Assembly (NCBI GenBank): GCA_001643675.2
Contig: LSRY02000005.1
Coordinates: 1,612,001-1,676,000, forward strand
DNA length: 64,000 nucleotides
DNA from: Monocercomonoides exilis PA203
Taxonomy: Eukaryota > Protista > Preaxostyla
Direction: 5' to 3'
Shown here: piece by piece, positions 20,708 through 64,000 of the stretch
Layout of the letters: every line of letters starts with the position of its first letter
Position numbering within the stretch: position 1 is the stretch's first letter
Notes under the pieces: model-generated
Told to the model about the DNA's origin: nothing
What the model saw: only the letters and a program-made list of their open reading frames with translations
The model's database searches: none
Position numbers and translations under genes: made by a program

Positions 20708-20846
20708 TGTTGACCAAAATGCACAAATAATTTGGTTTTTTTATGATCATTAATTTTGGAAATGTGATTTTTGTTTGTATATTATTCATTTCATTTGTGA
20801 ATATTATTGCTTTATTAATGCTTACAAGTCATCAGAAAATAGTTTT
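20708..20846 (+). repeat. Left TIR, perfect 139-bp core
   Basis: Exact reverse complement of 26158-26296 (tgttgaccaaaatgcac...cagaaaatagtttt). Diverged homology continues on both sides. Confidence 0.95.
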
Positions 20847-21674
20847 GAAATTTTTATTGTTTTAATTCGGGAAAAAAAATTGTTTTTTTATTTTTCATTG
20901 AATATTCACTTCATATCAGAAAAATATCATTGAAAAATTAAACACTCAAAAATGTTTTGTTTTTGAATGAACATGTTTATAATTATTGTTCTATTCAAAA
21001 TATAACTGTTTTGATATCAATATCTTCATTGTCAAAGAACAACAACGGTTGATGAATATTTAGTGATGAGAAAAACAAAAAATAAATGCATTGCTAATTA
21101 GATAACAATCATAAAACAATAGAACACATAAATAACTATAGAACTTCATGATGTTAATCATCTTAAAAATAGAAAATAATGTTTAAGTTTCTTTTCTTGT
21201 TGCATCACATTCAAAGGAAAATATTTTTACCATATCGACAGCAAAACATTTCCCGATTGTCAATTCAATATCAATTCATATGAACAATAAAAGATTCAAT
21301 AAAAAGCATAACTATATCAACAAATACATGGTATCATAGTCAATTCAAAACACAAAAGAATACAAATACTTTAGGTACAAAAACAAACTTGACTGTTGAC
21401 CCTTTGTTTTCCACCCACTCTCCCCTTTCTGATATTACTCTTGTCCTAACTCAGAAAGATCATATTCAACAGAGAAAAAAGGCAGACACAGTGATGAAAC
21501 ATCACTTCACACTCTCAGCTATTCTCCTTTCCTAAAATGTAATCCAAAAATCATTGAAACTCTTCACAACACCCATCAAAAAATGAATCTCTATCTAGAC
21601 ATATATAAATAAATTTCGGGACTATTACCAAGTGAAAATAGGGACATTATAGGGACAGAAACAGTAAGAAAACA

Positions 21675-25964: not shown

Positions 25965-26157
25965 TTTAGTGATTATCACAATTTATTATGGAATTATAAT
26001 CAATTTATAAAAGTTTAACAGCTCAACAATTATTGTTTTAATTGAATTTTCAATATAAAACTTTCGATAAACAATAACAAATATAAATAATTTTGCTCAA
26101 ATGAGAAATTTATGTTTCAGATTTAATAAAAATCTCAAATTGAACGATTAAAATAAT

Positions 26158-26296
26158 AAAACTATTTTCTGATGACTTGTAAGCATTAATAAAGCAATAA
26201 TATTCACAAATGAAATGAATAATATACAAACAAAAATCACATTTCCAAAATTAATGATCATAAAAAAACCAAATTATTTGTGCATTTTGGTCAACA
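26158..26296 (-). repeat. Right TIR, perfect 139-bp core
   Basis: Exact reverse complement of 20708-20846. Confidence 0.95.
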
Positions 26297-40622: not shown

Positions 40623-43600
40623 CTTTCTTCTTTTTCCAGTCGACAGTGAGATGAACGAACTTTTCATCAAACATTCTCTACACAAAGGCTTGGAAAAGAC
40701 ACACAAGTTATTTTGCATGAAACCATTGAATCAAAATATCCTCTTAATCTGTCAATCGAGTCATCTAATTATGAAATCTTGAAATCCTTCTTCTATCAGC
40801 TTTTCAGCTATCTCTTTTTTCACTGCCTTTCTTTTTGCTTCATCAGCTTCATTATCTGCCTTTTCTGAAAAGAAGATTGAAAGAATTCCGAATAATGTTC
40901 ACGACAACAACAAACTTCTTTGTCATTCAGTCGTGATTTCTGCATTTCCTATGATATCCAGTCCGCAACGTTGCCTTTCAACAAAGCTTCAATGCTTAAG
41001 TCTCTAATTATTGCAGTTTCTATTACAAAAAGTGAGAAACTTGTCTAATGATTCACTTTTATTCACTCCTGCTTTTCAGCACTGTCTTGTCATGCTTGTT
41101 GTGAACTTGATGTTTTCTTCATCTTTCATTTTCATCAAGAAAAATGGAAGTTTCGAATTGATCCCATTCATCTTCCTTTTCTTTTCCTTCTTTGTCATCT
41201 TCTTTCTTATTCAAATCCACCTTCCTCATCGCCTCATCCAGTTCTCTTGAAACCACTCTCACAAAATTCAGCTCATCTGCAACCCCCTTTTTCAAAACTT
41301 CTGATGAACTGAAACTGCCATGAACATTCAAATGTTTGTTTTGTCAGATTTCTGTGTTCTTCTTCATTTTCAATGATTTCTTTCATCTCCTCAAAAAACA
41401 GCTCTTTTTCTCTTTTCTGTTTCCAATTTGATGAAAACACCAACGTGTTTCCCATACCAACAAAGACAACACAATTTCACTTTTCAAACACTCCAAAACG
41501 ATTCAAAATCAACAACTCCATTTCCACTTCTTTTTGAATTGCTTCTCTTTCTTCATTGCTCGATCATGATTTTGAAAGACAAGACATGTTGATTTCATGA
41601 AAGTTCAATTTGCACAAGCTGTCAGGGAGAAGAGGGCATTTACAAAGATCAACAAGAAGTTCTTCACTCTTTTTTCCAACGATATTCATCCTGTCGAATA
41701 ATCTGCTCAATGAAGAGTTACAAAAAAACAAGCACTCAGAATTCTTCTCATCACTGATTAATATCCATCATGCTTCATCAGGTGAAAGGCTTTTTTTACC
41801 ATCGATTTCTTTTCTCCAATCGATTTGTTAATTGAATTGAACAATTCTATCTGCAAAACAAAAACAATCTCTTCTTCTTCCATTTTGTGCATCACCTCAT
41901 TTATCTCTTCAATTCTCTGCTTCTTCTCTATTTCTGTGTAATACTCCAATTCAGAGAAAATCTCATCAAAAAAGAATCGCAATCATTGAAGGAATTGAAA
42001 AGAATGCCAAAAATAAAAAATACTTGAAAACATGTCCTTTGAAGTCATTTTTTGTGATCAATCTCAAGATTGACTATCTTCACACCATTTCATTCAGAAT
42101 AATGCAAGGTGGAATTCAAGTTTTTTAAAAAACTGTTTGTCAACCAAATAAAGAGATATGAATCCAAAACGTTGTTGATTGTTTGACAAAATGAAAGGGG
42201 GACAATTTCAATTTCAATTGATTTGATTTGTGAAAAACAATGGAAAAGAGAGCAGAGTGAAATGAAATGACTCGGCTGAAAAAGACCAGAAAAGAAACAC
42301 ATTCGTTCATTTCGTATCAAATCAACAATAATTCAAAAAGAGGTTGTTTTGAATTGATCAAAGAGGAATTTCTGATTCTTCGAAGAGAATGCACAACCTG
42401 ATTTAAAAAGTGGATTTGTCTCAAGAGAATTGGAAAACAAGAAAACAACATTGTCGAAAAAGGAAAACAATTGTTTGTTTATTCTCGATATATTCAATCA
42501 AGGTTCAATGATAAATGATAATAGAACTCTTTTTTAATACTATTCACTTCAGCTTAAAGAGGTTGAAAGGAAAGAAATGAACAAAGAAAGGCAAACTTTG
42601 AATTATTAAAAAAAATATATTGGAAAACGAACAGATAAGAAGAAGAGCCTTTCATGAGATGAATGGAAAAGAAAAGTTGTTGAATGAGACAATAACATAT
42701 TAATTATCTTTCATCAAGAGGTGAGAAATATCTTTTTTGCTGAGAACAAAAACAATTTGAGAAGTTGAGCTTTTTTTCAAAGAACAAATCCACACACTTG
42801 AGATGGAACGTTAATTCCAATCAACTTGTTGAAGTCGTCCAACAGTGAAATCCAGTGAAAAAGAAAGGAAAAATACTCAAAAAAGCAAAAAAGACAAACA
42901 AAGGAATGTTTCTTCACATATGGAGAAAAAAATTTCTAATTTATTCTTTTTCATCTGGAGGAATGGAGGCTGACCAACTAAGATACACACATGAAGAAAC
43001 AGTTTCAATACAAAGTGAATGAAGAAGTCAACAAGAAATATGATCCATTCATTATAGAATTATATGGAAAGAAATAATAGAAGTTAAGCAGTCCTGAAAT
43101 CCTTCTTTTGAAATCGTTATCATTGCATCAAAACAATGCAACTTTTGAATGTTGGACATCTCATCAATTTATCTTTTTTATTTTTTCTGTGTTCAGAAAA
43201 TGCAAATTCTTTTGCTTCTCACTATCTGGGCTGAAATGATACAAGTGCCTTGTCTGTATCTTTTTATTCTGTCACTTTACCAATATCATCTTTCACAGTC
43301 ACAGCTGTTGAATTTGATGAATCGATTGCTATTGGTAGTTGCTTAATCCATCAAACAACTTCATTGATGAAAACCTTTCATTGAAGCCTTTCATCAAAGC
43401 TGACAATGTTCCATATTAATTTCTCTGCTGAGAACAACAGATTTCTTTTCATTTTTCATTTTGATTATTCCTTCTCATCATTTTCATGTTGCCTTCAACT
43501 GTTTGAGATATTAACAGAGTTTATCAAATCTCAAGTTTCAAAAACAGTTCTGCATTGTGATTGATTGATGTGAAGGGAAAAATGAAAAGGAGATGATTTT

Positions 43601-49900: not shown

Positions 49901-52003
49901 ATGGACAGTTGCATTTTTGATGGGAATTCAAAGGAAGGAAATGGGCAGCTTTTCAATGAGGGAGAAGAGATGTGCAGATGGGATGGATCTCTTGTGAATA
50001 TTGCAAGGAGTTCTGTGATGATGAAAGATACAACATTATCAAATTCAGCGGAAGGAGGAATTACAATGAGCGGAGGTGAAATGACTATTGGTGATGGAAG
50101 ATTTGAGAACAATAATCCAACTTTTGAAGGATATCCATCGCTGAGAAGAAATATCATCTGTTCAGATTCTGGAACGTTGAATGTGATGAGTTTGAAGGGA
50201 GGAGATGGATTGAAGGATGGCTCATCATTGTGGATGTTGAATGATGGGTGCAGTTTTGAAGGGATTGTTTCTGAGAGGGATTCATCATTCTTCATTCCTG
50301 TTCTGGAAAGTGTGGAAGCAAAAGAAATAACAGATAGAATGAAGCTGATATTCAAAGGGATGCTTCTTGTTCCATGCAATCTGTCATTCTCAGTTGTGAA
50401 GAGGAAAGGAGAAGAGAAAGAGATTGAAAAATATGATTTTGATGGAAATGGGTTTTTATCAGAAACAGAAGTTGAAGGAAGTGTGGCAAAGGATCTAATC
50501 AGCAATTGTGGAGATGAAATCGAGGTGAGCGTGTGCATTCTGTTTGGGAATGCAGAATCGCCTTCATCAACAAATTCAATCATTCTGAAGAACAGAAGCG
50601 AGATTGAGCCAAAAGGAGATGAAAGAAATGTTGAAGGAGGAAAAGAAGGAAAATCGATATGGCCTCTAATTGTTGTTATATTGGCTGTGTTGTTCTTGAT
50701 TGCGATGATAATCTCCATTGTTGTTACAATTCGATGGAGAAGAGCAAAGAATGAGAATAAAGATCTGAGAGAGATTGTGAATGACTCTGTGAAAAAGGAT
50801 CCGAAACTGATTGAGATGGTGACAATGGAGATGTCACCTGAAGAGCAGTGGAGGAGAGCAGAGAGAGAAGCAGAGAAGAAAAACGAAGAAAGGATAAAGA
50901 AAAGAATAAATGGAAAGGAGATGGTGCATTCAGAATCTGAAGAGTATCTTCTGTCTGAGAGTGGTTCAACTGAATATATATTGGGAAAAGATTCAAACAA
51001 GATTCCTGATTGGGCATTGGAAAAGATTGATGAGAAGGAAGAAGAAGAGACAAGAAAGAGAACACCATCACCATCAATTTCATCCAATTGTTCAACTGAT
51101 TCAGACTCAACGTTTGTTCGATCGGAGAGTCTGTGTCCCACCACCTCATCCATGTCTAATCTGGTGGATGCGATGGCTTGCTCGTCTCCTCATGAGAAAT
51201 TGATTGTGGATTTGAGGGATTCGCTGTTCATGCTTCTTCATGGAAGGAATGAGAAGAAAGAGATGGCGATTGGTTCCTTGAAGGAGAGAGAAGTGACAGC
51301 TGCCCAAATCCTGTTCTGGGTGGCTAATCTCGCACTCCACTCATTTGATGAAATGGAAAATCCACTTCAGTCACTTTCCAATCTCAGCCCACACATTGTT
51401 CTGTTCTCTGAGCATATGGTGATCTGCATTGCGATGCATTCAGACTGTTCTTCTGATGATAGTTCAGATTCATCGTCGATCTCTTCATCAACAGTTGTGA
51501 CATCTGCAAGTGATGATGAAGATTCTCTGCCTTCATCGGCTTTTGAGGATGACGAGGACAATCGATATGAGTGCATGCGGTGGAAGGCGCCGGAGCTGCT
51601 GATGAACAAAAAGATGGGAGCGACAAAGGAGTCGGTTGTGTTCTCGATTGGGATGATGCTGTGGGAGTGTCTGACGCTGCAGATCCCGTTTGGGGAGTAT
51701 GAAGGGGAAGTGGCAGGGAAGAAGATAGCGAGTGGGGAGAGGCCGAATCTGAAGCTGGTGAGAGACTCAGACTATGAAGAGTTTGTGGAATCGCTGCTGT
51801 GGTACGACTGGCAGAAGCGGCTATCGCTGGAGGGGGTGAAGAAAGAGCTGCTGGGGCACATGCCTGCAGGAGCTGTGATGTTCACTGCATCAGACGCCAT
51901 AAGCCTCGAGGAGTCGGAAAACGAGGAGAAAAGGAGCACAGTCGAGATAAACTCACGTGCTCGTGAGGAGGCGGAGCGTTTGTTGAAGGAGATGACAGCT
52001 TAA
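43991..52003 (+). CDS. Large type-I membrane surface protein: beta-helix-like ectodomain, TM helix, degenerate kinase-like C-terminus
   Basis: Intronless 2670-aa ORF with an N-terminal hydrophobic segment, GGA-type repeats, repeated CG-x4-PC modules and TM IWPLIVVILAVLFLIAMIISIVVTI. The C-terminal RWKAPE..VFSIGMMLWECLTLQIPF lacks recognisable HRD/DFG motifs. Confidence 0.85.
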   Translation: MARFSTSAKVAFNIVALILVVVNCCNTSVIAEKQNQRETNLEMPESAISVENSSNKYYNKKGIGAAKVIFSPGDRVNCARTNVNIINASLCVSDLAMEPLGGCAFLSAQHHSSCTIFSSTCKIHADASHPLFLSSHSSLSLTNFSLFIPQPAILSFPLFSIPNNLLPDAHSPIPTSFSISHSSFSSFISLHNSFLFSPSSSSSSSLLHRHLQIHLSLHLSDTLFTNITTAPQSTHTIPAKPTHTHNSFTTTTNTNTNTIPFFSLHSSLSIHSTIFFHTHNPIDGAILPDLNSPTTSLSAFNASFLHQTRSSANAAVVHVGTETQRAKPGRLTSFDVNSHRFEWCEWNDSNGGSDWGGALKVNRTNANLTITSCSFNKCSTYGEAGALYCGQLLKLNIEKSNFTSCSAAHGGAARLDNPQSSSVWTFSENRVENCSISGWCGTGWYFALNNNQLNFQFSFSKCKCISNSGGDSAGSLTFHSPPQSKPEKFLVNDCQFISNKLISSSTSWGGAALCCTATFSWMSGNKFITFCFFDGNTAKNGRGSDVFFNGNSITQSPFENCVSTTPSLRVWNQGTADNETFNSWLPLVAQNKVVANNGTDADVCGRQGRTPCATIEYALDGFALMQDASLTLLSSTFVPNQTLTFIASSIKITGIGTDATTIASSGIPQPPNLHSQSSQSTSSFSSFSSTASSSSPDPSASSALFQQTQGSLTVSALAIAHNSTNQITPILFHLSGNSHSLKLNTTIITGTTPSSSSTTTPLFFLTAGSLALNHTAITSLALNSQSIFHLTSLTAPLTLNSSNITHITSTATPTSCVLSSATSPALSLSLTNCTITNIDSAPQNQQTATNGGCISFASSAPANTFSVSDTAFSTCSVSEDTSSGGRGGALMIEFNQGSQVSESSFSITNIVFSENKASVGRDMYFVCESLVASVKEPFFAFMRSITEKDNSVVGHDRTQMFSDWDVNLFVFLDGYFSDTIYVDGTSGVEEVYCGLEKAPCLNVNYGMGRLKRSQNIKQEIILCANSSLNGCLDVGGMNVKAKSETIVGVECKREVSGSEDCILKSTLETEIQFIGIIVPSRFNRAITSVIESTTQNGELHIKNCAISVIGGKGSTIGFSLIRSTGKMVELDSVTISDVKSSVALFSISPSSGNMNEDEFRVKLLNCTMEACSLDNTSFDGSPLMISSSVLFESSNFSNIENKDSEKGGVAKVTLQGNEELVMKSTNASSCSLSSSNGKGGFLFLDCQSCLNEKPFIFDAGITFENNKAAIGKNVFILGKNLNSSVTNDSFNFDYSSMINDKTLFVGSDNFHSNKDLFLFLIPFSSTEIFISSEGFDVARCGSEEEPCFTMWKGMENMNDGEGNKTIQISGSTVVQDSFNVSSYQIKKSVKMGEEDAKAKLNFEKAIGSQLEYFMGNDVHLELTNIQLQLSSGFDNSSKAVISNNAGELEITGCSFHSEAEVNNGFECVFVDVIGGTVEVNDLSIESCNVGNSIFVIHDDGVSCHFVNIHVKSLNESGGCILSIKKSEAGLKINEGSEGGINLQIDKSSFSGVKRSDNGASILESKSENKICLVINESNITEGKAELGEKGGAIFFTLGASGSMKMIESTISHCSCNNSTGRGGGVYLATEERGFLNFTFVGMKFSANTAKVGNDIFIECFNITSQINERQFQLDLREGHYSRINAIYGIDCCEHKEDTDLIDFVTIHQSDTIIVSSVNGSNDRQCGTSTLPCHSIDYGLMHLTSDFISQMFIVEESVICEEINLEEMSLNSKSREMCKVEVKSGIERMRETLVTTTGEVSLLRVNFVFDSNFISSHESLISPEGGILEIMNCSFTSKQLAEEGNVAFTSIPFHLLNMEKGELQLMECKVNNLILHKSALSLSSPLPSTIDSLTICNSTIKTSLIEIYECEQLNMEKFHSENITVEGNDESLISCFSMKKTMQLTNCTIDGVSSQATKGKLMKVEDCLDVKMDSCIFDGNSKEGNGQLFNEGEEMCRWDGSLVNIARSSVMMKDTTLSNSAEGGITMSGGEMTIGDGRFENNNPTFEGYPSLRRNIICSDSGTLNVMSLKGGDGLKDGSSLWMLNDGCSFEGIVSERDSSFFIPVLESVEAKEITDRMKLIFKGMLLVPCNLSFSVVKRKGEEKEIEKYDFDGNGFLSETEVEGSVAKDLISNCGDEIEVSVCILFGNAESPSSTNSIILKNRSEIEPKGDERNVEGGKEGKSIWPLIVVILAVLFLIAMIISIVVTIRWRRAKNENKDLREIVNDSVKKDPKLIEMVTMEMSPEEQWRRAEREAEKKNEERIKKRINGKEMVHSESEEYLLSESGSTEYILGKDSNKIPDWALEKIDEKEEEETRKRTPSPSISSNCSTDSDSTFVRSESLCPTTSSMSNLVDAMACSSPHEKLIVDLRDSLFMLLHGRNEKKEMAIGSLKEREVTAAQILFWVANLALHSFDEMENPLQSLSNLSPHIVLFSEHMVICIAMHSDCSSDDSSDSSSISSSTVVTSASDDEDSLPSSAFEDDEDNRYECMRWKAPELLMNKKMGATKESVVFSIGMMLWECLTLQIPFGEYEGEVAGKKIASGERPNLKLVRDSDYEEFVESLLWYDWQKRLSLEGVKKELLGHMPAGAVMFTASDAISLEESENEEKRSTVEINSRAREEAERLLKEMTA

Positions 52004-52960
52004 TAGACTTACCGTTGCAAAAACTGTTGTGCATGCAATAATCCATAAATCTCAAAGAAGAATTGAACGGTAGTGCCTGACAGAGAAAGGGAAATTTTTT
52101 TGTTTGGAAAAGTTAAAACATTGATGGAAAATGGCGAATATGTGAAAGAAAGAAAAGACAGAGAGAAATTGCGAAAAATGTTCAAATGTATTTATTAAAT
52201 TATTTGTTTTTTGTAATTGTTGGTATTTCGTTCGTTTGTTTTTGTCTTATTTCAAACAGATTCAAAGCAAAACAGTTGATTCTGAGAGATTCTTGATGTT
52301 GATTTTTGTTTCTTCTGTGTCAACGGTACTCAAAAAAAGAAATATTGCAAGGCAACAATTGACACACAGATATTAGAAAATCAAATCTTTCGGAGTATCT
52401 TTTGGGTGCATTTGAATTCTTCGAAAAAAAAAATTATAACATTATTTGAAAGATTATAATTTATTTGAATAGGGTTAATTGTATTCAGAAAAACGGAACA
52501 TTAAAAATTCGCAAACATAATTCAAAGAAAGTCCAAAATCTGATTCATTTAAGAAAAAAGGACGATTCCCTTCCATTATTATCTTTTTAACTTCAATAAA
52601 ATGGAAACAAAACCTAAATTGAGTTTTTATTTCCATTTCAGTGAAGTTTCGAAGGAGGAACAGAAATTTGATCAAAATATGAAATTCGTATTTCGTTTGA
52701 AAAAACAACAAAAAAAAGTTTTCAAAAAATTGTTGTGCATTATAATTCCAAGTTAATATTTTTCCATTGAAACAAAAAAAACAAATCAATTATTTTTGTA
52801 ACTCAAATCATCACCCTCATGACAAAAAATAGAGAAATTTATTTCGTTTCGAATAATCTTCCAAAAAAAGCAAAATGTTTGATTTCATTTGGGTTATTGT
52901 TTTTGAAATCATAATTTAATTCGGGGCGTTGATTTTTCAAAATTATTAAGTACTACTATA

Positions 52961-53014
52961 TAATGCGAGTAATTAAACCCACATTTAAAAATGTGGCCCA
53001 AATTACTCACATTA
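52961..53014. repeat. 54-bp imperfect palindrome
   Basis: taatgcgagtaatt-aaac-ccacattt-aa-aaatgtgg-ccca-aattactcacatta. Confidence 0.8.
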
Positions 53015-53235
53015 CGGCTCCAAATAACATCAAACAAGAAAATTCATAAATTTCAACTTAAATAAAGCATAAATATTTGAAAAATGAGGTGTTTTTTCAC
53101 ATACTTTAGTGCGATCTAAAATATTTACTGTTTTAAATTATTTCAGTTCATTTTTTTAATTCATAATAAAATTGTCAGTTCATGTTTTTTCTTTTTGAAA
53201 TAAAAGCAAATTTGAAATATGCATGTTCATATTAA

Positions 53236-53307
53236 GCTTTCATAACTTAAGGGTAATACCATGGCCTTTCATAATTAAGGTCAAGGGTTCAATACCCGTT
53301 AGAGGCG
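53236..53307 (+). pseudogene. Degenerate tRNA-Met(CAT)-like sequence
   Basis: 72 nt long. Acceptor GCTTTCA/TAGAGGC (6 of 7 pairs including G-U), TTCATAA loop, AGGTC variable region, T arm AAGGG-TTCAATA-CCCGT. The D and anticodon stems no longer pair. Confidence 0.55.
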
Positions 53308-53791
53308 ACAAATTTTCAAACATTTGTCAAATCAAATAAATCATGCCTCTTTGCGATATATGAGACAGAGTTTCTCATAGCTGCGCTGCAGTCAAATTCG
53401 CAGTGAATTTAGAACTCAAAATCAAAATCTAATTCACAATAATAAATGAAAAGTGCTTAATGAAAAGTGCTTAATGACAATCAAAATTAAACAATAAATA
53501 ATTAATCGATATCGATAATTAAAATCAATCAATCAATAATAATAATTATTGAAATCAAATCAATCACAAAAGAAAATCCCAAATATTGAAAAATTTCCAA
53601 AACTTTCAATTCTACTAAAAAATTAAATAGGACCCTTTTTCGTATTTATTATCAATAAATTATATTCATGTTTTTTTGTTATTTAATAAAATAAGGTTGT
53701 TATTAAAAATGTGTAAAAAAAATGTGATTGAAAATAGAAATTATTAGTTTAAAAAATAATTTATATATTTTTTAATTCATTTTAAAATTCA

Positions 53792-54055
53792 ATGGGAAGA
53801 AAAAAGTTATATGCATCAGAAGAAGAAGCAAAAGCAAAACAACTGCAGCAAATAAGAAAAAGTCAAGAAAGATACAAATTACAAAATGAGTTTTTCAAAA
53901 AGCATTCACACGCAATTCAACAAGCAGTCATAAAAATGCTCTCAAAAAACATGTTCGAAAGTGAAGACACTTTAAAAGAGGTCCAAACTATTCTCAATAA
54001 TGCTAAATATATTTCTATTGAAGAGGCTTATAGTAAATATTGTGATGAACAGTAA
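53792..54055 (+). CDS. Small basic viral protein
   Basis: 87-aa ORF starting MGRKKLYASEEEAK, with a basic helical N-terminus. Confidence 0.65.
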   Translation: MGRKKLYASEEEAKAKQLQQIRKSQERYKLQNEFFKKHSHAIQQAVIKMLSKNMFESEDTLKEVQTILNNAKYISIEEAYSKYCDEQ

Positions 54056-54087
54056 TGAATAAATATATTTTTATCTTCTTTAAAAAG

Positions 54088-54435
54088 ATGTCAAAAACAG
54101 CTAAAACTATTAAAAAAGAATTACCAGATATAACAATAATTGAACCTTTTTCACCTGATATAAAAACATTTGAAACAGTTCAGGAGTTTAAAGAGTATCT
54201 AACAGATAATGAAGAAGAGATGAATAAGCTATCAACATGTAAACTCAATAAGCAATATCACATAGAAGGATATAGAATCACCAAACTCAATAACAAGATA
54301 TCACTAAAGAAATCTTCAAATAACTACTTGTCGAAAAATTTATCGAACGATTCTGAAATTATTGATGCAATCAATATTCTGTCAAAACAAATGGAAATCG
54401 TTGTAGAAACTCTGAAAAATAATAGACTGCTTTAA
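54088..54435 (+). CDS. Hypothetical viral protein
   Basis: ATG 54088 follows the shared TTTTTATCTT motif. Its stop overlaps the ATPase stop at TTAA 54432-54435. Confidence 0.7.
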   Translation: MSKTAKTIKKELPDITIIEPFSPDIKTFETVQEFKEYLTDNEEEMNKLSTCKLNKQYHIEGYRITKLNNKISLKKSSNNYLSKNLSNDSEIIDAINILSKQMEIVVETLKNNRLL

Positions 54436-55334
54436 AGGTGTCGAACGTATCTTACGTTTAAAGACGTTCTGTTGTCTTCTTTTTTAGCATAAATAATGGT
54501 CTTTATTTTTGTACCATCGTCATCATATGAGAAGTGCATGATGTCTCTTCTGCTTAAATTTTTGTAGCCTTCCCATAGAGCATCACGATCTTGATAAGTC
54601 TGCAGCTGATAATATACATAATTGAACTTCAATTTGGAGAATCCTCCAAATATCCACAGAGTATCCAAATTAGCTTTCACTTCCGAGCATATTCCTTTTG
54701 GATCTTGTAAGCATAAGAAGTATGTGATCATAGGCTGTCTATTCTCAAACAGTAATCTAAATATCCCATCTTTCTTTTTAAACATCTCCATGCAATCATC
54801 AAATAAAACTGCTGTGTGATGAACAGGTTGAGAAAAGTCATCTATATGCAGTGTCTCTAATACAGCATTCACAACTGATTCATCCTGTTGTTTTCTATTG
54901 TAAATGTCACGATATAGTTCTTTGGCATTACTGATATCAGTTAGTGTTTTTAAAGCTTCATTATATCTCACTTGCACAATTGGAAATTCAATAAATTTCT
55001 TCATCCTTTCAAATGTCTGATCACTACTCTTATCAGACACATACACAAATAATGAATAGCCTCCAAAATGCAGTTCAGGAGTGACATCATATTCTTGATA
55101 TAATTCATCTAATGCACTCACTTTAGCTAGTTCTTTCAAAACACTATATGTTTTTCCACTTCCTCTTCCTCCGACAAGCAAATTAACAGAATTGCGTTTG
55201 AAAAACAGATCTGGATGTATATCTGATTGAATCTCATGTGTGATATCTAATTCTGCCTCCCTGTTTCTTCTATTCACGATTGTTTCTAAGGATCTCGAAT
55301 TGATTTCTTTCAGAAGAATCAGTCCGCTTTTCAT
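54432..55334 (-). CDS. A32/FtsK-HerA-like DNA packaging ATPase
   Basis: Walker A LLVGGRGSGKT, Walker B AVLFDD, Arg-finger/Gln-sensor region ENRQPMITYFLCLQD; 300 aa. Confidence 0.85.
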   Translation of the reverse strand: MKSGLILLKEINSRSLETIVNRRNREAELDITHEIQSDIHPDLFFKRNSVNLLVGGRGSGKTYSVLKELAKVSALDELYQEYDVTPELHFGGYSLFVYVSDKSSDQTFERMKKFIEFPIVQVRYNEALKTLTDISNAKELYRDIYNRKQQDESVVNAVLETLHIDDFSQPVHHTAVLFDDCMEMFKKKDGIFRLLFENRQPMITYFLCLQDPKGICSEVKANLDTLWIFGGFSKLKFNYVYYQLQTYQDRDALWEGYKNLSRRDIMHFSYDDDGTKIKTIIYAKKEDNRTSLNVRYVRHL

Positions 55335-55398
55335 AATGATAATAATTTAGTATTTTAATCTGATTAAAACATTTTTATCTTGTATAAAAGAACTATTG

Positions 55399-56400
55399 AT
55401 GTTTAACAATCGAAATCTGCTTGAGTTACCAAAAAAAGGAATTTCACTATTTTCATCAGATCCCACCAATAGAAAAAAGTCACATGCAGGTGGTCCTAAA
55501 GCAAAACTTGGAATGGATGAATTGAAACATATTGTACTTGATCAACAACAGGAAATACGATATATTAAAGATCTGATGAGTGAACAGTCAGGGAAAAACT
55601 ATCTGAAACGAAATAAACTTTGGAAAGAAGGAAAAGATTGGAGTTTCGATTCAATAGATCATGATAACAACCCTGATACTCCCGATAAGATCATTTGGAA
55701 AACTCCTAATAACGATATATATGCTGTTGATGGATATACAACAGGAAATGAGCGCAAGAGAAGAAAACTTATGCGTAATTATATTGATAAATATCCAAAC
55801 TTGAATGACAGACGTGAGAACAAATATGTTGATTATTTGAAGAATCTTCATAAAGGACAAGTTGACAGAATGGATATTGATTTCAAAAAGAGAGTAGTTT
55901 CACAGATCCTTGAGAAGTTTCAATTAAGTTTCAACACAAGTGATGAGGTGAGAAAATTATGTGAAAATAAGAAATTCACCTACAGTCAGCATCTTACAAA
56001 AATTAATTCTGTAATATACAGACAGTGTTTGATTCATGATATGATGATGGCTATCAATCCAAATATCGGTATTTACAATATGTTTATCGATAAAGAAAAT
56101 GTGATATCAAAGCACAGGAAGTATTGGAAAGCATTCTACTCTCGATTAACTGATGATGATTTCGATGTTCTCATAAAAAGATATGCTCCAACAACGATTC
56201 AAGTTGCAAAAATGATATTCACTTCTCAAAATCCTTTGACGAATTTTGTGCCATTAATAAATACAAATCCTGATCTTCAGAATCCTTTTATAGAAATATT
56301 TATCAAATTTAATCAAGGCACAAGTTCATCGTCAGCTTCTTCGTCTTTTTTATCTTCAGCGATTTCTGACAAGATGGATATCGAAGAAGAACAATTTTAA
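55399..56400 (+). CDS. Hypothetical viral protein (333 aa)
   Basis: Long intact ORF divergent from the ATPase. No motif recognised. Confidence 0.7.
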   Translation: MFNNRNLLELPKKGISLFSSDPTNRKKSHAGGPKAKLGMDELKHIVLDQQQEIRYIKDLMSEQSGKNYLKRNKLWKEGKDWSFDSIDHDNNPDTPDKIIWKTPNNDIYAVDGYTTGNERKRRKLMRNYIDKYPNLNDRRENKYVDYLKNLHKGQVDRMDIDFKKRVVSQILEKFQLSFNTSDEVRKLCENKKFTYSQHLTKINSVIYRQCLIHDMMMAINPNIGIYNMFIDKENVISKHRKYWKAFYSRLTDDDFDVLIKRYAPTTIQVAKMIFTSQNPLTNFVPLINTNPDLQNPFIEIFIKFNQGTSSSSASSSFLSSAISDKMDIEEEQF

Positions 56401-56480
56401 ACAAATAATAAATACAAAAATAAATAATAACATTTATAAAGTTAAAAATATTTTTGTGGATTTTATTAATAGTTTTATTT

Positions 56481-56834
56481 TTATAGTTGAACTCTTCTGT
56501 TAAGCAATCCTTGCTTTAGAATATCTGATGTACTCGATGTTGCTCGATTCATTCCTCCTGATCTGATTAATGCTCCTGAATCATTTGAATTTTGGAGATC
56601 GTAAGAGATGTTTCTGCTTCTGTTTCCAAGAGCATTATCAGCAAAATCACTCACTGTATTCACAACGTTATTAATGAGTTTTCCAGGACCGGGAAGGAAT
56701 GGTGATACAGTATTCAATACAGGTCGAACAAGAGGCTTCACTACCTTATCGTTTACCCATTTAATACCATTTTTCACAGTATTAAATGTATTCGAGAAAA
56801 AATTTTTCATTTTGTTCCAAATTCCAGCTGACAT
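56481..56834 (-). CDS. Putative virion protein with N-terminal amphipathic helix (adenovirus protein VI-like)
   Basis: MSAGIWNKMKNFFSNTFNTVKNGIKWVNDKVVKP; basic C-terminus; adjacent to the capsid gene. Confidence 0.55.
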   Translation of the reverse strand: MSAGIWNKMKNFFSNTFNTVKNGIKWVNDKVVKPLVRPVLNTVSPFLPGPGKLINNVVNTVSDFADNALGNRSRNISYDLQNSNDSGALIRSGGMNRATSSTSDILKQGLLNRRVQL

Positions 56835-56892
56835 ATTTTGATAGCGATAAAAAATTATATTCTTCAAGTTTTTATCTTCTATTAAATACGAA

Positions 56893-58653
56893 ATGTCAAA
56901 TCTGCATGTTACAAAAGCACTTGGGTTACAGCCTGTTGGAAATATTGAGGCTGCATTAAAAACTTATTCAAAAATGACTGCAATCAACGATGGAAGACAC
57001 TATTATTCAATTTCAGAATCTATTCCTGATGAAAAACTTCCTTTGGATTACACTCATGAAATAAACATATCTATGACTAACGCAAATGTTGATGTCACAC
57101 AAATTCATGATTCATTTATTACTACAGTCATTACTGCAAGAATCAATTTCTCTCATGATCTTGTTACACGCGATAATGAGATCTCACAAGCAGGAAAGAA
57201 ACTGCTTGAGTCTCAATTTATGTTCATCGGACTGAGATCAGGATCAAATATTATCTCAGATTATTGTGTTGTTCATGGAGAAGATAAGATTATTGATTCG
57301 ACTCGTCAGCCCAACGCAACTATTGAATCATTTATATATAACACGATCAAGCCAAAAACTGAAAAAGATAATCGAAAACATATACACTCTTTATATGATA
57401 ATGTGCACAAATATGATAATTCTGCTTGTGGAGTCTACGTTCCGATAACACTAATTAAAGCAGGATCTTATCTTGATATTGATATTCCAATATCCATTCC
57501 TCTTGATGATATTCTTCTGTTTTCAGGATTTATTGATTATCCTAATCGTTTATTCGGAAATTTGAAACTGAAATACACCATAAAACCTGAAGCACTTGTT
57601 TACTGTCGAGTATCTCCAAAAATGTCCATGATCAAAACTGTAGGAAAACGAAGAAACTACTTCAAATCTTCACAAGGACAAAACTACGATAGCATAATGA
57701 AGATGATCCTTACTACTCCTGATTCATGTTTTGAGTATGCAAAGAAGTTCACACAAATAAACTGTCCTTCACGTCAGTTTGTATTCAATTATGACTTAAC
57801 TGCTGAAGGAACTGTTGATGGATTCAATTATGAAACTATTATTCCTGAATTTACTCCCACAGTCACATTCTGCCAGACGAAAGACTGTAAGATCTCTATT
57901 GCGGGTTATAGTGTGTCTTCTCAATGCTTAACTAATCTTATTGAATACTTCTCTTCTCATCCATTTGTTGTTCCTTCACAAAGAATTGAGACAAAAAGAT
58001 TAGGAAGTGCTCCTACTCCTTCAGGATTTCAACAGTGCCATGACAACTTATGCTTTAATCATGTAATGTCAACAGTTACTCTGTTCCAAAAAGATACTCG
58101 TCATTGGACTACATTTGACAACCCTCAATATAAAGAGCTCCAACTCTACATAGGTGATAGACGATTCCCTGAAAAGCCTTTAAATACTACAGATGCAACG
58201 TTTTTCCAGATGATGCTTAATGCTTCAGATCTTGATTCTTTATTCCCTGCTACTGAGGAGTACGAAGAGAGTCTCACAAGTGTCAAAAATAATGCTTCTG
58301 AAGTCTTCTTTCCAACTACTGATGATACATCATTCATGTTCACAACACAGTGTGAGAGAAGTGGTGGAACTGGAATCTGTTTTGATGGAATTCACACTGG
58401 AAATACTCCTGTTTCTGTTGAACTCAGAGAAACTCCCATATACAGTGGAGAAACAGATACTTATTACAACGTTAGAGATGATCTTTCTCAAACTGCAAGA
58501 CATCCTCCTGCTCCTCTATTCAACATGGTTCAACAATCATTTTGGATTTTTAGTCTTAAAGATGGATTAAACGTTCAATATGTTAAAGATCACACTGCAG
58601 AAGATGTGTTAAGAGCGTTAGGATATACTCCAACTGGAGAATTAGAAGAATAA
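56893..58653 (+). CDS. Probable major capsid protein (double jelly-roll)
   Basis: 586 aa with beta-strand-like alternating hydrophobic patterns (IDIPISIPL, LKLKYTI, LQLYIGDRRFP), located between the packaging ATPase and a penton-sized gene. The fold is inferred. Confidence 0.65.
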   Translation: MSNLHVTKALGLQPVGNIEAALKTYSKMTAINDGRHYYSISESIPDEKLPLDYTHEINISMTNANVDVTQIHDSFITTVITARINFSHDLVTRDNEISQAGKKLLESQFMFIGLRSGSNIISDYCVVHGEDKIIDSTRQPNATIESFIYNTIKPKTEKDNRKHIHSLYDNVHKYDNSACGVYVPITLIKAGSYLDIDIPISIPLDDILLFSGFIDYPNRLFGNLKLKYTIKPEALVYCRVSPKMSMIKTVGKRRNYFKSSQGQNYDSIMKMILTTPDSCFEYAKKFTQINCPSRQFVFNYDLTAEGTVDGFNYETIIPEFTPTVTFCQTKDCKISIAGYSVSSQCLTNLIEYFSSHPFVVPSQRIETKRLGSAPTPSGFQQCHDNLCFNHVMSTVTLFQKDTRHWTTFDNPQYKELQLYIGDRRFPEKPLNTTDATFFQMMLNASDLDSLFPATEEYEESLTSVKNNASEVFFPTTDDTSFMFTTQCERSGGTGICFDGIHTGNTPVSVELRETPIYSGETDTYYNVRDDLSQTARHPPAPLFNMVQQSFWIFSLKDGLNVQYVKDHTAEDVLRALGYTPTGELEE

Positions 58654-58897
58654 ACCAACCAATTATATATTTTTTTATTTTTATCAATAATGAAATAGTC
58701 AATCATTACAAATACATAAATGTTATTTGAAATAGTCCTTTGCACAACATTAATAATATCAACAATTGCCCAAACATTTCAGTGTTTATTATTAACAGCA
58801 GCAATAAAAAATGAAGATCCTCCAAGACTTCCAACACCTGAATCGATGTATGTTTAATTTCATTTTTGAAATGCTTTGTGATTTTAATTTTCAGTAA

Positions 58898-59413
58898 ATG
58901 AGTGAACATGAAGTGCTTCGGGGACTAAGTCCCCTCGAGGATCATAGATCCGTTCCAGCTAAGGCTGCTCGGCAGACCTTGACCCTTCGGGATATTTCGT
59001 CGAGAATAGATATAAATTATGATATCAGTGTGCCTGTTAAAAGATATCACTCAACATCAACTTTAATCACTAATCTTCCAAAAGCGTTTATTAATTCAAA
59101 ACGAAAAAGATATTTTCATGTTATATGGTGTAAACTGATTCGAAAAATTGAATTAAACAACAGTGAATCTTCAAGTTTAATTAATACTATTGCACTTGAA
59201 AAGCCTAAACACATTTCATTACATGGGGATTTCATTCATGAAGATAAAGATAATGATTCACTCGTTAGGTATTGTAATGAATTTCAAGAGAGAGATAAAT
59301 ATCAGCAGTTCTTTCAACAAGATAACTTCAGAGTTTGGTTCAAAAATTTTGATGAAACTCCTTTGGATATGTCTAATGTCAAATTCGTAATGAAATACAT
59401 GTTGGAATATTAA
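58898..59413 (+). CDS. Probable minor capsid (penton) protein
   Basis: 171 aa directly after the putative MCP. C-terminal FRVWFKNFDETPLD...FVMKYMLEY resembles the last strands of single jelly-roll minor capsid proteins. Confidence 0.5.
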   Translation: MSEHEVLRGLSPLEDHRSVPAKAARQTLTLRDISSRIDINYDISVPVKRYHSTSTLITNLPKAFINSKRKRYFHVIWCKLIRKIELNNSESSSLINTIALEKPKHISLHGDFIHEDKDNDSLVRYCNEFQERDKYQQFFQQDNFRVWFKNFDETPLDMSNVKFVMKYMLEY

Positions 59414-59495
59414 ATATAAAATATATCAAAACGGTTTTCTTAATTTATTCCAATATTAGTAATATTTTTTCATTTTAGTAAATATTTTTACTCCT

Positions 59496-59981
59496 ATGAA
59501 AATGAACAACGTTGACAAGCAAATTTTAACTGCTAATAATGAAGTATTTTCACTAGGGACTTACAACGGATTATCAGTTATTATTAGAGAAAAGGATAAG
59601 TTCATTAACGCAACAAAAATGTATTTAGCTATTAATGAAAAAAAGAAGTTCAGCAGGATTCGTGATAGTAAATCTTGGGAAGAATATATTGATGAATTTA
59701 AGCGTGTATATAATTACAACTCTAATAACAGTAATGAATATGAATATGAATTGAAAAAAGGATATGATAAACAAACAAGAGGAACTTATATAGATCCTAA
59801 ACTTATAAATTATATAGCTATATGGGCATCTCCTAAGTATGCACTATCTGTTGGAAAACTTATGAACATAATTAATCAACGCACACAAATAACAGGAGAA
59901 TCATTTGATTCAGTTAAAGATAGTTTAATTGAAGAACAGCAAAAAATAATCGATGAACTTAAATCTAAAATTGATCAATAA
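59496..59981 (+). CDS. KilA-N domain protein
   Basis: YNGLSVIIREKDKFINATKM, RGTYIDPKL and IAIWASPKYA, followed by a coiled-coil tail. Confidence 0.88.
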   Translation: MKMNNVDKQILTANNEVFSLGTYNGLSVIIREKDKFINATKMYLAINEKKKFSRIRDSKSWEEYIDEFKRVYNYNSNNSNEYEYELKKGYDKQTRGTYIDPKLINYIAIWASPKYALSVGKLMNIINQRTQITGESFDSVKDSLIEEQQKIIDELKSKIDQ

Positions 59982-60113
59982 AAAATGAATAGATAATATA
60001 TTTTTATTTATATTCGAAAAAAACACTTATGATTAACTTTACTTATGTCTAATACTCAAGGCTTCAAAAATTAGCGTCAATTTTATTTTTTCGAATTTTT
60101 AATTACTATAAAA

Positions 60114-60818
60114 ATGAGTAATAAAAATACTATTGGATTTTGTACCAATGCTATGTGTAAATGCACAGCTGATATTGTAGAAATCATAGATGAGAACTTT
60201 ATTGTTATCGATTACAGTCAACTACACTTGATATTTTCAGTCAAGGATCAAATGTTTAACGCTTCAAAACTTATAACAAGTATTTCATCATCTGAAATGA
60301 ATACTTGGAACAGAAGCAAAAGTGGACAGTTGTTTAGAAAGAGATTTCCACAATACTTTCGTGAGATAACTACGAAAGAGTTAAAAGGAACAGATATCAA
60401 CAGATTAGCAGGAACTTATATGGATCCTTCGATGCTATTTGTTATAGTATCATGGTGTAATCCAATGCTTGGATATTTCTTAGCAAATGGCATCTGTGAT
60501 GAATGTAAAAACGATGCAGCAGGATATGTTTATGTAGTACAACCTGAAGAATATTTTGATACTGACATTTATAAAATTGGTAGAACTTGGAATCCGAAGC
60601 AGAGATACAACAATTATGGAAAGAAAATTAGAGTAATTCGAGAAGTTAAAGTATCAAATATGTATGCGTGTGAGTCAGACATCATATCTGAATTAGAGGA
60701 ATATAATTTAAAACCTTTAAAAGGAAAAGAATATTATCAAGTGGAAGATATCGATGATGATTTGTTATATCATTTTGATGAGAACGCAAGCAGATACAAA
60801 ATTAAAAAAGATCAATAA
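60114..60818 (+). CDS. KilA-N-like plus T5orf172 (GIY-YIG-like) domain protein
   Basis: MFNASKL...GTYMDP...VSWCNP, then GYVYVV...YKIGRTWNPKQR...E...GKEYY. Confidence 0.82.
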   Translation: MSNKNTIGFCTNAMCKCTADIVEIIDENFIVIDYSQLHLIFSVKDQMFNASKLITSISSSEMNTWNRSKSGQLFRKRFPQYFREITTKELKGTDINRLAGTYMDPSMLFVIVSWCNPMLGYFLANGICDECKNDAAGYVYVVQPEEYFDTDIYKIGRTWNPKQRYNNYGKKIRVIREVKVSNMYACESDIISELEEYNLKPLKGKEYYQVEDIDDDLLYHFDENASRYKIKKDQ

Positions 60819-60961
60819 AGTTTGAATAATATATTTTTATTTCATACATGAAATACACTTATGATTCACCAAAGTAATATCAATAAATGATACCCCTGAA
60901 GGGATAGAGATTCTTCAAATCAATATCAAATCCATCGAAATGTTAGCCAAAAATAATCCGG

Positions 60962-61144
60962 AGCAAGTGACTTTATCTGTCTTGCTCCAGCTTGCTCCAT
61001 GTCGATTTTATATATAAGAAGTACTGATTTCAGTCTCAATATTGATCAATCTTGCATTAAAAACTGTATAAGACCGGAGCAAGTGGAGCGGAGCAAGTTA
61101 TCAAATCGTTATCTCTAAAAATAGCGGCCATACGGACATATTGG
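60962..61144 (+). repeat. Inverted repeat left of the primase-helicase gene
   Basis: Exact reverse complement of 63818-64000 over 183 bp. Confidence 0.97.
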
Positions 61145-61217
61145 TCATTATTATAAGAAAACAAGAAAATAAGCTTAATTTCAAAAAATAACTTTTTTTA
61201 TTTCCACAAAAAGACAT

Positions 61218-63806
61218 ATGCAAAACTTTATGGACATAAACTCAAAACTGTTAAGAAAAAATCCTGCATTAATGGTTAATGAAGATCCAGAAATTGAAGA
61301 GATGTTTGTTCAAGAAGAACAGAAACGGAGAATAAGAAAAGAAATGATGAAAAAGAAGACAATCGGTGAAAGAATAAAAGGATATCAGAAACCATTATAT
61401 AATTACAAGAAAGTGTCTCGAGAATTCAAGAACAAAACTGCTGATGAAACAGTTAATGAAACAGGACAGAACACTGGACATTATATTGATATTAGCAAAA
61501 TTGATAATCTTGCTGTTGTCGATATCGACATCAATAAAGCAGTTGACGAAGAAAGAAAAGAGAGAATCAGACAATCAATTCTTTTGAGATTGCCAGAAAA
61601 TGTCGGATTAGTGCAGACAGGAAATGGTGGATTGCACATATACTGTGACAGAGATGAATATCCATTAAAGACTGATTCACAAACAAAAGCATATAAGTGT
61701 TCTGATTATGATATTGATGTGTTTGCTTGTGTTAATGGAAATCGACGGTGTCTTGTTCAAGCTGATACAGAAATAATAAAGTACACAGAAGAAGAGAACA
61801 AGTATGCAACAATATATATTCCTGAGAAATTGATAAAGAAAGCAGAAGAAGAGAGTGATTTTACTGGTCGATATGATGATTCTGCAATCAATCAATTCAT
61901 CGAACAAGCTGAGACCAGAATACGTGAAAGAGTCAAAGGAGATTCTAAAGTGATAAAAAAATATATTGACTTGAATAACTACCTTGCTAAATCGAATCTT
62001 TCATCGTTGGAAGACATTCTGAATATATTTGGTATTGATATTCGATATGATTCATCAAATGACGATACAAACATACATCTAACAGCTGATGGACTATGCT
62101 CAATGCCGAAAGAGTTTGCTGAAGTGCTTGTTTGTGGACTAACAAATGTTACAATACATAGTTATTGTCATTTCAGTATCGATAGAGAATTATCGTTGTT
62201 CCCGTTGTTTTGTGCCATTAACAGTCTCATTAATATTGAATCAGTACAAGATGAAGACATCGATGCATACTATCAAGAGATAAAAAGCAATAATATATTA
62301 ACAGCTAATGCTGATATGAATTGGGATCGAACACGAGAGAAATGTTCGAATAAGAAATCAACACCTTATGCTTTACAGAAGATCGTCAAGATCTGGTGTC
62401 CAGAATTTTATCAAAACACTGTTGTTCCTGAGATTAGGAAAATGAAACTAATGAAAACTCCAATTATAAAAGAAGTTATTGAATATGAGAAATGCACAGA
62501 AACATATAACTATTTAATTAGGAATGTAACGAAGATGTCAATACAAGATATAAAACAACATCTATTACGAACATTTGCAAAACTTGTCAAAGGAACTGAC
62601 GTTATTGCTCGAATGGAAACCAATATTTATTTCGTAAGAGATGCTGAATGGTTTGAGAATCAATTGAAACGTTTTATCATTCCATACGGTGTATCAACTA
62701 TCACATTAAAACAATTATTCGTCGAGCAATTCAAAAACTTCACTGTATATGATGAGGTTGCTCCTGTCTCAGATTTACCAAACATTTTCAACACATTCAG
62801 AATGAGAGATCCAACAGTATATCTGAATAATGAAGTCAAAACGATGATTGATTTTCTGAAAACTACATATGCTGATGAAGTTGCTTTCTATTTCGATCTT
62901 GGACGAGATCAATGGAGATTTAGAAACAATTATAAGTGAACAAAAATATCATTGGGATATTATGGTGAAAAGGGTGGAGAAGGAAAAGGTTTTCTTACTA
63001 CATTAAGGACAAAAGTGTACGGCAATGAATTCTCATCTGTTAATGTTAGATTCAGTCAATTAGGAAAAGAGCAAACAAAATCTCTTCTTGCAAATAAATT
63101 ACAGATTCAATTCGACGAGCTTCCACGTATAAAGGATGGAAAAGTTGTTGTTGAAGACTTCAAAATCCTTGATAATGACATGCTGTCAACAAGATCGATG
63201 GCAAGAGATGATGAAAACATAACTCTCTATTTCGATTGTGATTTCTCAACTAATAATTCATCATTTGCTGGGATATATAGTGATGAAGCAGTGCGAAGAC
63301 GTTTGTATCCCATCGAAAGAATACTTTCGACAAGAGAAGATGCGGTGGAGATGTGGAAACAATTGTGGAGTTGGATTAAGAATGAAGATTTCATCCACTC
63401 TTATATCAAATACATAAGAGAATCAGAAGATATTGAAAAGAATACAACATTCAAACCATATACCAAATTCACAATGCCAGTTTTCTTTAACAGAATACAA
63501 CAATCATATGAAGACTCTTTCGATATATGGTTAGAAGAATTCACTGAAGAACAATATAATAAAAATCTTTCCTATGAAAGAAAAGCAGATGGTATCAAGG
63601 GATTTAATGCAATTGATTTATTCAAGAACTACACAAAATATTGTTCTCTGAACAAACTTCCATCGACAATGAACAAAATTGGAACATTTAATGAAAGACT
63701 CAAAAGAATTTACGAGTATGACATCAATACAATAATGTGTTCAGATGGAGTCAAACGAAGATTAACATATATTGTCATGAAAGAAGATGAAAACATTAAT
63801 CAATAA
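61218..63806 (+). CDS. Prim-pol (AEP) plus SF3/D5-like helicase, interrupted by one in-frame TGA (62937-62939)
   Basis: Prim-pol motifs LAVVDID and VQTGNGGLHIY. The same frame continues NNYK*TKISLGYYGEKGGEGKG (Walker A), IQFDE (B), FSTNN (C) and AVRRR (Arg finger). Confidence 0.88.
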
Positions 63807-63817
63807 AACATCAGTGT

Positions 63818-64000
63818 CCAATATGTCCGTATGGCCGCTATTTTTAGAGATAACGATTTGATAACTTGCTCCGCTCCACTTGCTCCGGTCTTATACAGTT
63901 TTTAATGCAAGATTGATCAATATTGAGACTGAAATCAGTACTTCTTATATATAAAATCGACATGGAGCAAGCTGGAGCAAGACAGATAAAGTCACTTGCT
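63818..64000 (-). repeat. Inverted repeat right of the primase-helicase gene (truncated by the window end)
   Basis: Exact reverse complement of 60962-61144. It begins 12 bp after the helicase stop. Confidence 0.97.

What the first reader, a model, noticed from the sequence alone, without database searches (positions are those of the whole stretch)
53792..64000. Nearly intact endogenous Polinton-like virus with a prim-pol/SF3 helicase replication gene
Seen: ten compact intronless genes. Known: a packaging ATPase with major and minor jelly-roll capsids is the morphogenesis module of Polintons, PLVs and virophages, and KilA-N genes are common in such elements. No protein-primed PolB, retroviral-type integrase, tyrosine recombinase or maturation protease appears in the visible 10 kb. 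Inference: a little-described virus lineage of anaerobic protists that may replicate via prim-pol/helicase and internal origins rather than protein priming.
Basis: partly seen in the sequence, partly recalled or inferred. Interest (0 to 1): 0.8.

Follow-up and report, generated by a model that had tools for sequence, protein, structure and literature searches.

The report
Decayed protist virus, swapped helicase cassette
This is a broken, integrated copy of a small DNA virus in a gut protist, from a lineage already counted in this species; its replication gene sits alone between two mirror-image repeats that likely serve as replication origins, and it has likely swapped its helicase half with another viral lineage.

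Summary
The ten genes are real. The 586-aa protein folds like a double jelly-roll capsid protein, and the replication gene joins an AEP primase-polymerase to an SF3 helicase. The host is Monocercomonoides exilis, judged by 97-99% identical named paralogues. The lineage is not new: Bellas 2023 defined a 'Metamonada' capsid group and counted six capsid genes in this species, and AEP-SF3 replication is common in Polinton-like viruses. The copy is less intact than claimed: an in-frame TGA (62937) cuts the replication gene before Walker A, is present in the DNA and is specific to this copy. (1) Identical inverted repeats of at least 183 bp, carrying GGAGCAAG iterons, enclose only the replication gene and do not match the element's left end. 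(2) The primase half is 83% identical (C-terminal part) to that of a sibling copy, but the helicase half belongs to another clade (AU p 1.6e-6), with a DNA breakpoint at 62457. Best reading: a decaying Metamonada-group PLV with a recombining origin-boxed replication module. Minor capsid, integrase, pPolB and termini are unresolved, since sequence beyond 64000 was unavailable.

The parts
52961..53014 (.). Imperfect DNA hairpin near the probable left end of the element (boundary near 52950, uncertain)
   Evidence: 26-nt arms, 81% complementary; z -6.5 against 20 shuffles, but a window inside the ATPase gene scores -6.7, so this is not unique. A paralogous contig stops matching after 52951 (X1 record 2).
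53792..54055 (+). 87-aa ORF, unassigned
   Evidence: no Pfam or PHROG hit below E 0.02
54055..54435 (+). 126-aa ORF, unassigned
   Evidence: best PHROG hit E 0.003, unknown function
54432..55334 (-). P-loop ATPase, likely the A32-like packaging ATPase
   Evidence: Walker A and B visible in the sequence; PHROG terminase large subunit E 1.7e-5; 4 paralogues in M. exilis at 83-97%. The A32 motif reading is recalled; no A32 profile hit.
55399..56400 (+). 333-aa orphan ORF
   Evidence: No Pfam hit; phrog_9615, unknown function, E 6.5e-4
56481..56834 (-). 117-aa basic, amphipathic-helix protein; possibly a membrane-active virion protein (inferred)
   Evidence: Hydrophobic moment 0.36-0.55 over residues 7-66 (no control run); membrane-active genes are described in adintoviruses (PMC8502044); no homology shown
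56893..58653 (+). Double jelly-roll major capsid protein, Metamonada group
   Evidence: AF2 model pLDDT 56; Foldseek PDB best E 7.6e-8, all 30 rows shown are DJR capsid or scaffold structures; VIA Z 12.8, rmsd 5.2, 286 aligned to PBCV-1 capsid, top 13 rows all DJR; 37 of 42 homologues named Streblomastix strix
58898..59413 (+). 171-aa ORF, putative minor capsid protein (by position and size only); carries in-frame hairpin-rich insertions at 58917-58993
   Evidence: No Pfam, PHROG or homologue hit; other copies lack a net 36 or 69 nt here
59496..59981 (+). KilA-N protein; absent from some other copies
   Evidence: PF04383 E 2.4e-22; contig joints 59475/59476 to 60998/60890 skip it
60114..60818 (+). 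KilA-N + T5orf172 (GIY-YIG-type) protein, seen only in this copy, just outside the left repeat
   Evidence: one contig with 0 differences covers most of it in each of 4 runs, at the lowest depth of the stretch
60962..61144 (+). Left arm of inverted repeat (probably from 60944), with five GGAGCAAG iterons around an AT-rich core; predicted origin
   Evidence: 183/183 identity to the right arm; iterons at 60960, 60981, 60991, 61076, 61090; 9 of the window's 11 matches lie in the two arms, chance mean 1.56
61218..63806 (+). AEP primase-polymerase + SF3 helicase gene, 862 codons, broken by TGA at 62937-62939; chimeric, breakpoint near 62457
   Evidence: AEP: VIA Z 7.5 to NrS-1 (rmsd 4.0, 138 aligned), pRN1 ORF904 (4.5, 148) and 3m1m (4.0, 149), top 6 rows AEP; Foldseek top 10 all prim-pols but E 0.006-0.07. 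SF3: PF19263 28.6 bits, cut-off 27.6. Chimera.
63818..64000 (-). Right arm of inverted repeat, cut by the window end

Best explanation
This is a decaying integrated copy of a Polinton-like virus of the Metamonada capsid group, whose functional ancestor likely replicated with an AEP primase-polymerase/SF3 helicase predicted to load at the iteron-bearing inverted repeats that enclose its own gene, and whose replication module likely changes by recombination between co-resident elements. Shown: DJR capsid fold, AEP fold, SF3 profile, repeat anatomy, copy-specific stop, discordant ancestry of the primase and helicase halves. Inferred: the iterons bind the replicase, the AT-rich core melts, and the AEP primes without a terminal protein; the ATPase packages DNA; an integrase lies beyond 64000 or acts in trans; the neighbouring T5orf172 nuclease may drive module exchange.
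For: Capsid. Group: 37 of 42 homologues from S. strix; Bellas places S. strix MCPs in the Metamonada group and lists 6 MCPs in one cluster for M. exilis, matching about six loci on five contigs in the MCP and ATPase clusters. Origin anatomy: five iterons per arm in both orientations around a 15-30% GC core; the arms do not match the element's left end. Swap: identity to MONOS_9167 is 83% over residues 290-413, then 21% over 414-573; contigs of that sibling type stop matching at 62457 in 3 of 4 runs. The helicase half finds 25 relatives among 1.84 billion representatives, 6 at E<=1e-30; it groups with them at 98/94 away from the helicases of its five closest primase relatives; holding it with those five is rejected, p-AU 1.6e-6. 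MONOS_9167 follows an ATPase and MCP by consecutive locus tags on one contig, so the same capsid module occurs with two helicase types. Decay: at 62937 other copies read C while about one copy's depth keeps T in 3 of 4 runs; 5 of 5 closest relatives that span the site have K or R there; the other 5 of 6 MCP cluster members are fragments.
Against: Nothing beyond 64000 could be read, so a pPolB and integrase there are not excluded. The origin function is inferred from anatomy only. AEP scores are moderate (Z 7.5; Foldseek E above 0.001). The MCP model is weak in its second half (251 residues below pLDDT 50). The minor capsid and the A32 class of the ATPase are unproven. All four runs are one sample and may be the assembly's own source, and contig depth is not a copy number. 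The other copies with this helicase carry a +1 base after 62466 (X2 184 of 267 depth), so no intact copy of the chimeric gene was seen. The AU test group was named after an earlier tree had been seen.
Confidence: 0.6

Rival explanations
1. The repeat-boxed primase-helicase is a separate mobile replicon (a small capsid-less element with its own terminal repeats) that inserted into the virus and may have replaced its replication gene.
For: The arms enclose one gene and nothing else. Left flanks differ between copies, and the repeat unit is found truncated or tandemly repeated (joints 59475-60998, 59476-60890, 61152-60890). M. exilis holds at least 7 more related primase-helicase proteins, most on other contigs, while only one MCP cluster was found in it. 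Barth 2024 describes repeat-flanked D5-like helicases beside T5orf172 genes.
Against: Depth over this helicase type (X2 about 240-310) is not above that over the MCP (about 290-500), so no sign of spread outside the virus, though depth is a weak measure. No transposase or terminal protein inside the arms. The flanks of the other primase-helicase genes were not seen.
Confidence: 0.2
2. The arms are recombination sites: a tyrosine recombinase encoded further right would invert the segment, switching expression or amplifying a circular genome as in the yeast 2-micron plasmid (analogy recalled).
For: The arms are identical over 183 bases while copies differ by 1-6% in coding parts, which fits recent duplication or continued homogenisation. 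Barth proposes inverted repeats act as both origin and recombinase substrate.
Against: No recombinase seen in the window; contigs of 31-letter words cannot show orientation across a 200-bp repeat; no inverted form was observed.
Confidence: 0.1
3. A standard Maverick-Polinton with pPolB and rve integrase to the right of the window, in which the primase-helicase is an accessory gene.
For: Only about 11 kb is visible and such elements are 15-30 kb. Joints suggest a further gene beyond one arm in some copy (60066/60087 to 60944 on opposite strands, new ATG frame after 60100).
Against: In the sibling copy the gene model after the MCP is again a primase-helicase; AEP-SF3 usually substitutes for pPolB.
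Confidence: 0.1

Closest known systems
Metamonada MCP group of endogenous viruses (Bellas et al. 2023, PMC10120064)
   Same: MCP family shared with Streblomastix strix (30-42% identity); six MCP hits reported for M. exilis; intronless compact genes
   Different: The passages read give no gene content for oxymonad elements; the repeat-boxed replication gene and helicase swap are not mentioned there. Their gene maps are pictures that I could not see.
PLVs with AEP-SF3 replication modules (bioRxiv 10.64898/2026.06.19.733378)
   Same: AEP fused to SF3 helicase; replication module switching under one capsid type
   Different: Here the switch is inside the gene, between near-identical copies in one genome; Metamonada elements remain ungrouped in that framework
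Mobile D5-like helicases and replicon replacement model (Barth et al. 2024, PMC11296320)
   Same: Helicase flanked by repeats; T5orf172 gene adjacent but outside the repeats; recombination signs; repeats proposed as origins
   Different: Protist host; the gene has a primase domain; repeats are on both sides and internal rather than at the element's end; no tyrosine recombinase seen
Phage NrS-1 polymerase and plasmid pRN1 ORF904 (primase-polymerase-helicase replicases)
   Same: Best structural matches of the primase domain; the sibling helicase type matches NrS-1 helicase at E 5e-25
   Different: Prokaryotic replicons; this copy's helicase is a divergent subfamily with no PDB sequence hit
Maverick-Polintons (pPolB + rve integrase + terminal inverted repeats)
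   Same: DJR MCP and P-loop ATPase, integrated state
   Different: No pPolB, rve or protease in the visible 11 kb

Membership tests
Polinton-like virus | Double jelly-roll major capsid protein | tested here: met
Polinton-like virus | Minor capsid protein (single jelly-roll) | tested here: inconclusive
   58898-59413 has no profile or homologue hit; not folded
Polinton-like virus | A32-like packaging ATPase | tested here: inconclusive
   P-loop motifs and PHROG terminase hit E 1.7e-5; no A32 profile or PDB hit
Polinton-like virus | Replication gene: pPolB or polymerase/primase-helicase fusion | tested here: met
   AEP fold and SF3 profile; broken by TGA in this copy
Polinton-like virus | Integration gene (tyrosine recombinase or rve) | not testable with these tools
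   None in the window; no genome held for the sequence beyond 64000
Polinton-like virus | 15-30 kb length with terminal repeats | not testable with these tools
   Right end outside the window; left end near 52950 uncertain
Metamonada MCP group (Bellas 2023) | MCP clusters with S. strix MCPs | tested here: met
   37 of 42 homologues are S. strix, E down to 5e-123; motifs shared by eye with KAA6394011.1 as printed in Table S3; their own cluster was not rebuilt
Maverick-Polinton | Protein-primed PolB | tested here: inconclusive
   Absent from 52000-64000; downstream unseen
Maverick-Polinton | rve integrase | tested here: inconclusive
   Absent from 52000-64000; downstream unseen
Mobile D5-like helicase module (Barth 2024) | SF3/D5-like helicase flanked by repeats | tested here: met
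Mobile D5-like helicase module (Barth 2024) | T5orf172 gene adjacent, outside the repeats | tested here: met
   60114-60818, 143 nt from the aligned arm; seen in this copy only
Mobile D5-like helicase module (Barth 2024) | Independent mobility (empty sites, new insertion sites) | tested here: inconclusive
   Variable flanks and a domain swap, but no copy outside the virus shown
Transpoviron | Superfamily 1 helicase (feature recalled) | tested here: not met
   The helicase is SF3 type, PF19263

The most novel reading that the evidence does not exclude
The 3-kb unit of two iteron-bearing inverted repeats and one primase-polymerase-helicase gene is a minimal self-replicating mobile replicon of anaerobic protists that moves between capsid-bearing viruses, swaps helicase domains, and also persists without a capsid; the additional primase-helicase family in this genome would be its free-standing relative. 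This would be a replicon replacement caught in progress.
Probability: 0.2. Interest if true: 0.75.

Novelty: new variant of a known kind. Interest (0 to 1): 0.42.

Why it matters
Metamonada PLVs are still unplaced in current frameworks, and I found no text description of oxymonad element anatomy. This locus gives a defined candidate origin (iterons plus AT core) paired with its replicase, and a dated-by-identity example of helicase domain exchange between sibling copies, which makes the proposed replicon-turnover model testable in a culturable protist. The virus itself, and primase-helicase replication in PLVs, are not new.

Tried and rejected
No whole genome held, so termini, target-site duplication and downstream genes were not seen. 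Related loci: none in viral contigs with four queries, none in genome contigs, two short contigs without useful context in metagenome contigs. A tRNA-like stretch at 53255-53310 was not supported by ARAGORN or Rfam. Sequencing error or programmed readthrough at 62937 rejected in favour of a copy-specific nonsense change. Simple decay as the cause of the odd helicase rejected: it has a conserved family of relatives. The repeat arms as the whole element's terminal repeats rejected: no match to the left end. GC-rich perfect hairpins are not enriched in the element (2 of 10 entries, one site). No RNA holder listed. Extrachromosomal amplification: contig depth gave no hint of it, but contigs cannot test this. 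Earlier findings of this scan: nothing returned. The species' genome paper has 0 hits for 'virus' or 'viral' in its main text and its supplements did not hold the gene ids sought.
Full report
Observation. The region 53792-64000 holds ten compact frames, downstream of a 2670-aa host kinase-family gene. GC over the element is 31% and GC3 20-30%, against 42% for both in that host gene. Named proteins 97-99% identical to the capsid gene come from Monocercomonoides exilis, so the host is this oxymonad. No genome was held; nothing beyond 64000 was read.

Capsid module. An AlphaFold model of 56893-58653 from 39 sequences has mean pLDDT 56. All 30 Foldseek PDB rows shown are double jelly-roll capsid or scaffold structures, best E 7.6e-8; the viral library agrees, best E 3.6e-9; in the wide structural search the top 13 rows are all DJR proteins, best Z 12.8, rmsd 5.2, 286 aligned. 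The ATPase has Walker A and B motifs and a PHROG terminase hit but no A32 profile hit. The putative minor capsid gene has no hit of any kind and was not folded. KilA-N and KilA-N/T5orf172 genes are clear.

Replication gene. 61218-63806 is one frame with one TGA at 62937, just before Walker A. The first 413 residues fold like an AEP: the top six rows are AEPs, Z 7.5 for NrS-1, pRN1 ORF904 and 3m1m, and the top ten Foldseek rows are prim-pols though none reaches E 0.001. The part after the stop passes the Pfam cut-off for PF19263. Contigs of four runs (one sample, possibly the assembly's source) show C at 62937 in other copies, with about one copy's depth left for T in X2, X3 and X4. The stop is thus real and specific to this copy. 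Other copies of this type have an extra base after 62466, so no intact version was seen. The MCP also carries changes at two conserved columns, yet it is the only full-length one of six cluster members. This is the best preserved copy seen, and it is decaying.

Inverted repeats. 60962-61144 equals the reverse complement of 63818-64000 at 183 of 183 bases, and the pair encloses only the replication gene. The left arm carries five GGAGCAAG iterons in both orientations around an AT-rich core; 9 of the 11 matches in the window lie in the arms, against 1.56 expected in all (the two arms are not independent). The arms do not resemble the element's left end. Joints show that some copies run from just after the minor-capsid candidate straight into the repeat, lacking both KilA-N genes; that the unit is tandemly repeated in one copy; and that in some copy an arm is followed by a promoter-like stretch and a new frame, which suggests the repeats are internal. 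That anatomy is what an origin looks like (established knowledge of iteron origins, recalled); function is inferred.

Helicase swap. Against MONOS_9167, which by consecutive locus tags follows an ATPase and MCP in a sibling copy, identity is 62% over the AEP part and 83% over residues 290-413, then 21%. Contigs of that type stop matching at 62457 in three of four runs. The primase tree makes the two sisters at 100/99. A search of 1.84 billion representatives with the helicase half gave 25 relatives, the ten looked up all from metagenome or run assemblies. In the helicase tree (21 rows; P0044 left out as too short) this protein joins them at 98/94, apart from the helicases of its primase relatives at 100/98; forcing it with those five is rejected, p-AU 1.6e-6 (group named). 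Three full-length relatives of this helicase have N-terminal parts that did not match this primase. The gene is a recent chimera.

Mechanism. Most likely (0.6) the active ancestor used the primase-polymerase-helicase at the repeats, needed no protein primer, and packaged DNA with the ATPase into the DJR capsid; modules were exchanged by recombination among co-resident elements, perhaps aided by the T5orf172 nuclease. Rivals: an independent mobile replicon (0.2), an invertible segment (0.1), a Maverick with pPolB further right (0.1).

Comparison with print. PMC10120064 (passages; supplement searches and parts) defines the Metamonada group, lists six MCP hits for M. exilis and five mapped loci. 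The spreadsheet is cut, so coordinates (Table S5) and transcriptome hits (Table S6) for this species were not seen, and the maps are pictures; that this locus is among the six is likely, not shown, and those files may already show its gene content. bioRxiv 10.64898/2026.06.19.733378 (passages and section 9; supplements not seen) calls AEP-SF3 modules and module switches common and leaves Metamonada elements ungrouped. PMC11296320 (passages, section 8, first part of section 9) proposes repeats as origins and mobile repeat-flanked helicases beside T5orf172. PMC8767320 (passages and supplement search) has no hit for 'virus' or 'viral' in its main text. PMC8502044 (passages) covers membrane-active virion genes. 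Other papers were seen as listings only; none of these searches returned a description of this element's repeats, within a library that lacks most subscription papers.

Verdict. A real, already counted kind of endogenous virus, with an undescribed replication-module layout and a well-supported domain swap. New variant of a known kind; interest 0.42.

Noticed in passing
window 58917-58993: In-frame, hairpin-rich insertions in the putative minor capsid gene (other copies lack a net 36 or 69 nt); sibling ATPases P0070, P0071 and P0072 also carry 12-25 extra residues near their ends. Possibly small palindromic inserts that keep the frame.
   Followed up: partly
proteins P0046, P0047, P0056-P0060: A second primase-helicase family in M. 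exilis with at least 7 proteins, about 30% identical to this one, with an NrS-1-type helicase; no second MCP family was found to go with it.
   Followed up: partly
window 62466: Other copies of this helicase type have one extra base close to the primase/helicase border and the swap point; shared defect or a natural split gene is undecided.
   Followed up: partly
window 53255-53425: Cluster of short hairpins with a tRNA-like look; not called by ARAGORN or Rfam.
   Followed up: partly
window 81-2492 and 41173-43581: A 2.4-kb inverted duplication at about 73-91% identity, probably a dispersed host repeat.
   Followed up: no
window 20596-20861 and 26143-26408: 266-nt inverted repeat (89%) flanking 5.3 kb that contains a frame with a ubiquitin hydrolase domain.
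   Followed up: partly
window 35098-35691: DDE_1 transposase fragment, E 8e-8.
   Followed up: partly
proteins P0052, P0054: MCP fragments occur twice on one contig in mirrored accession order, suggesting an inverted duplication of one element.
   Followed up: no
window 52589-52648: 60-nt imperfect palindrome in the spacer left of the element.
   Followed up: no
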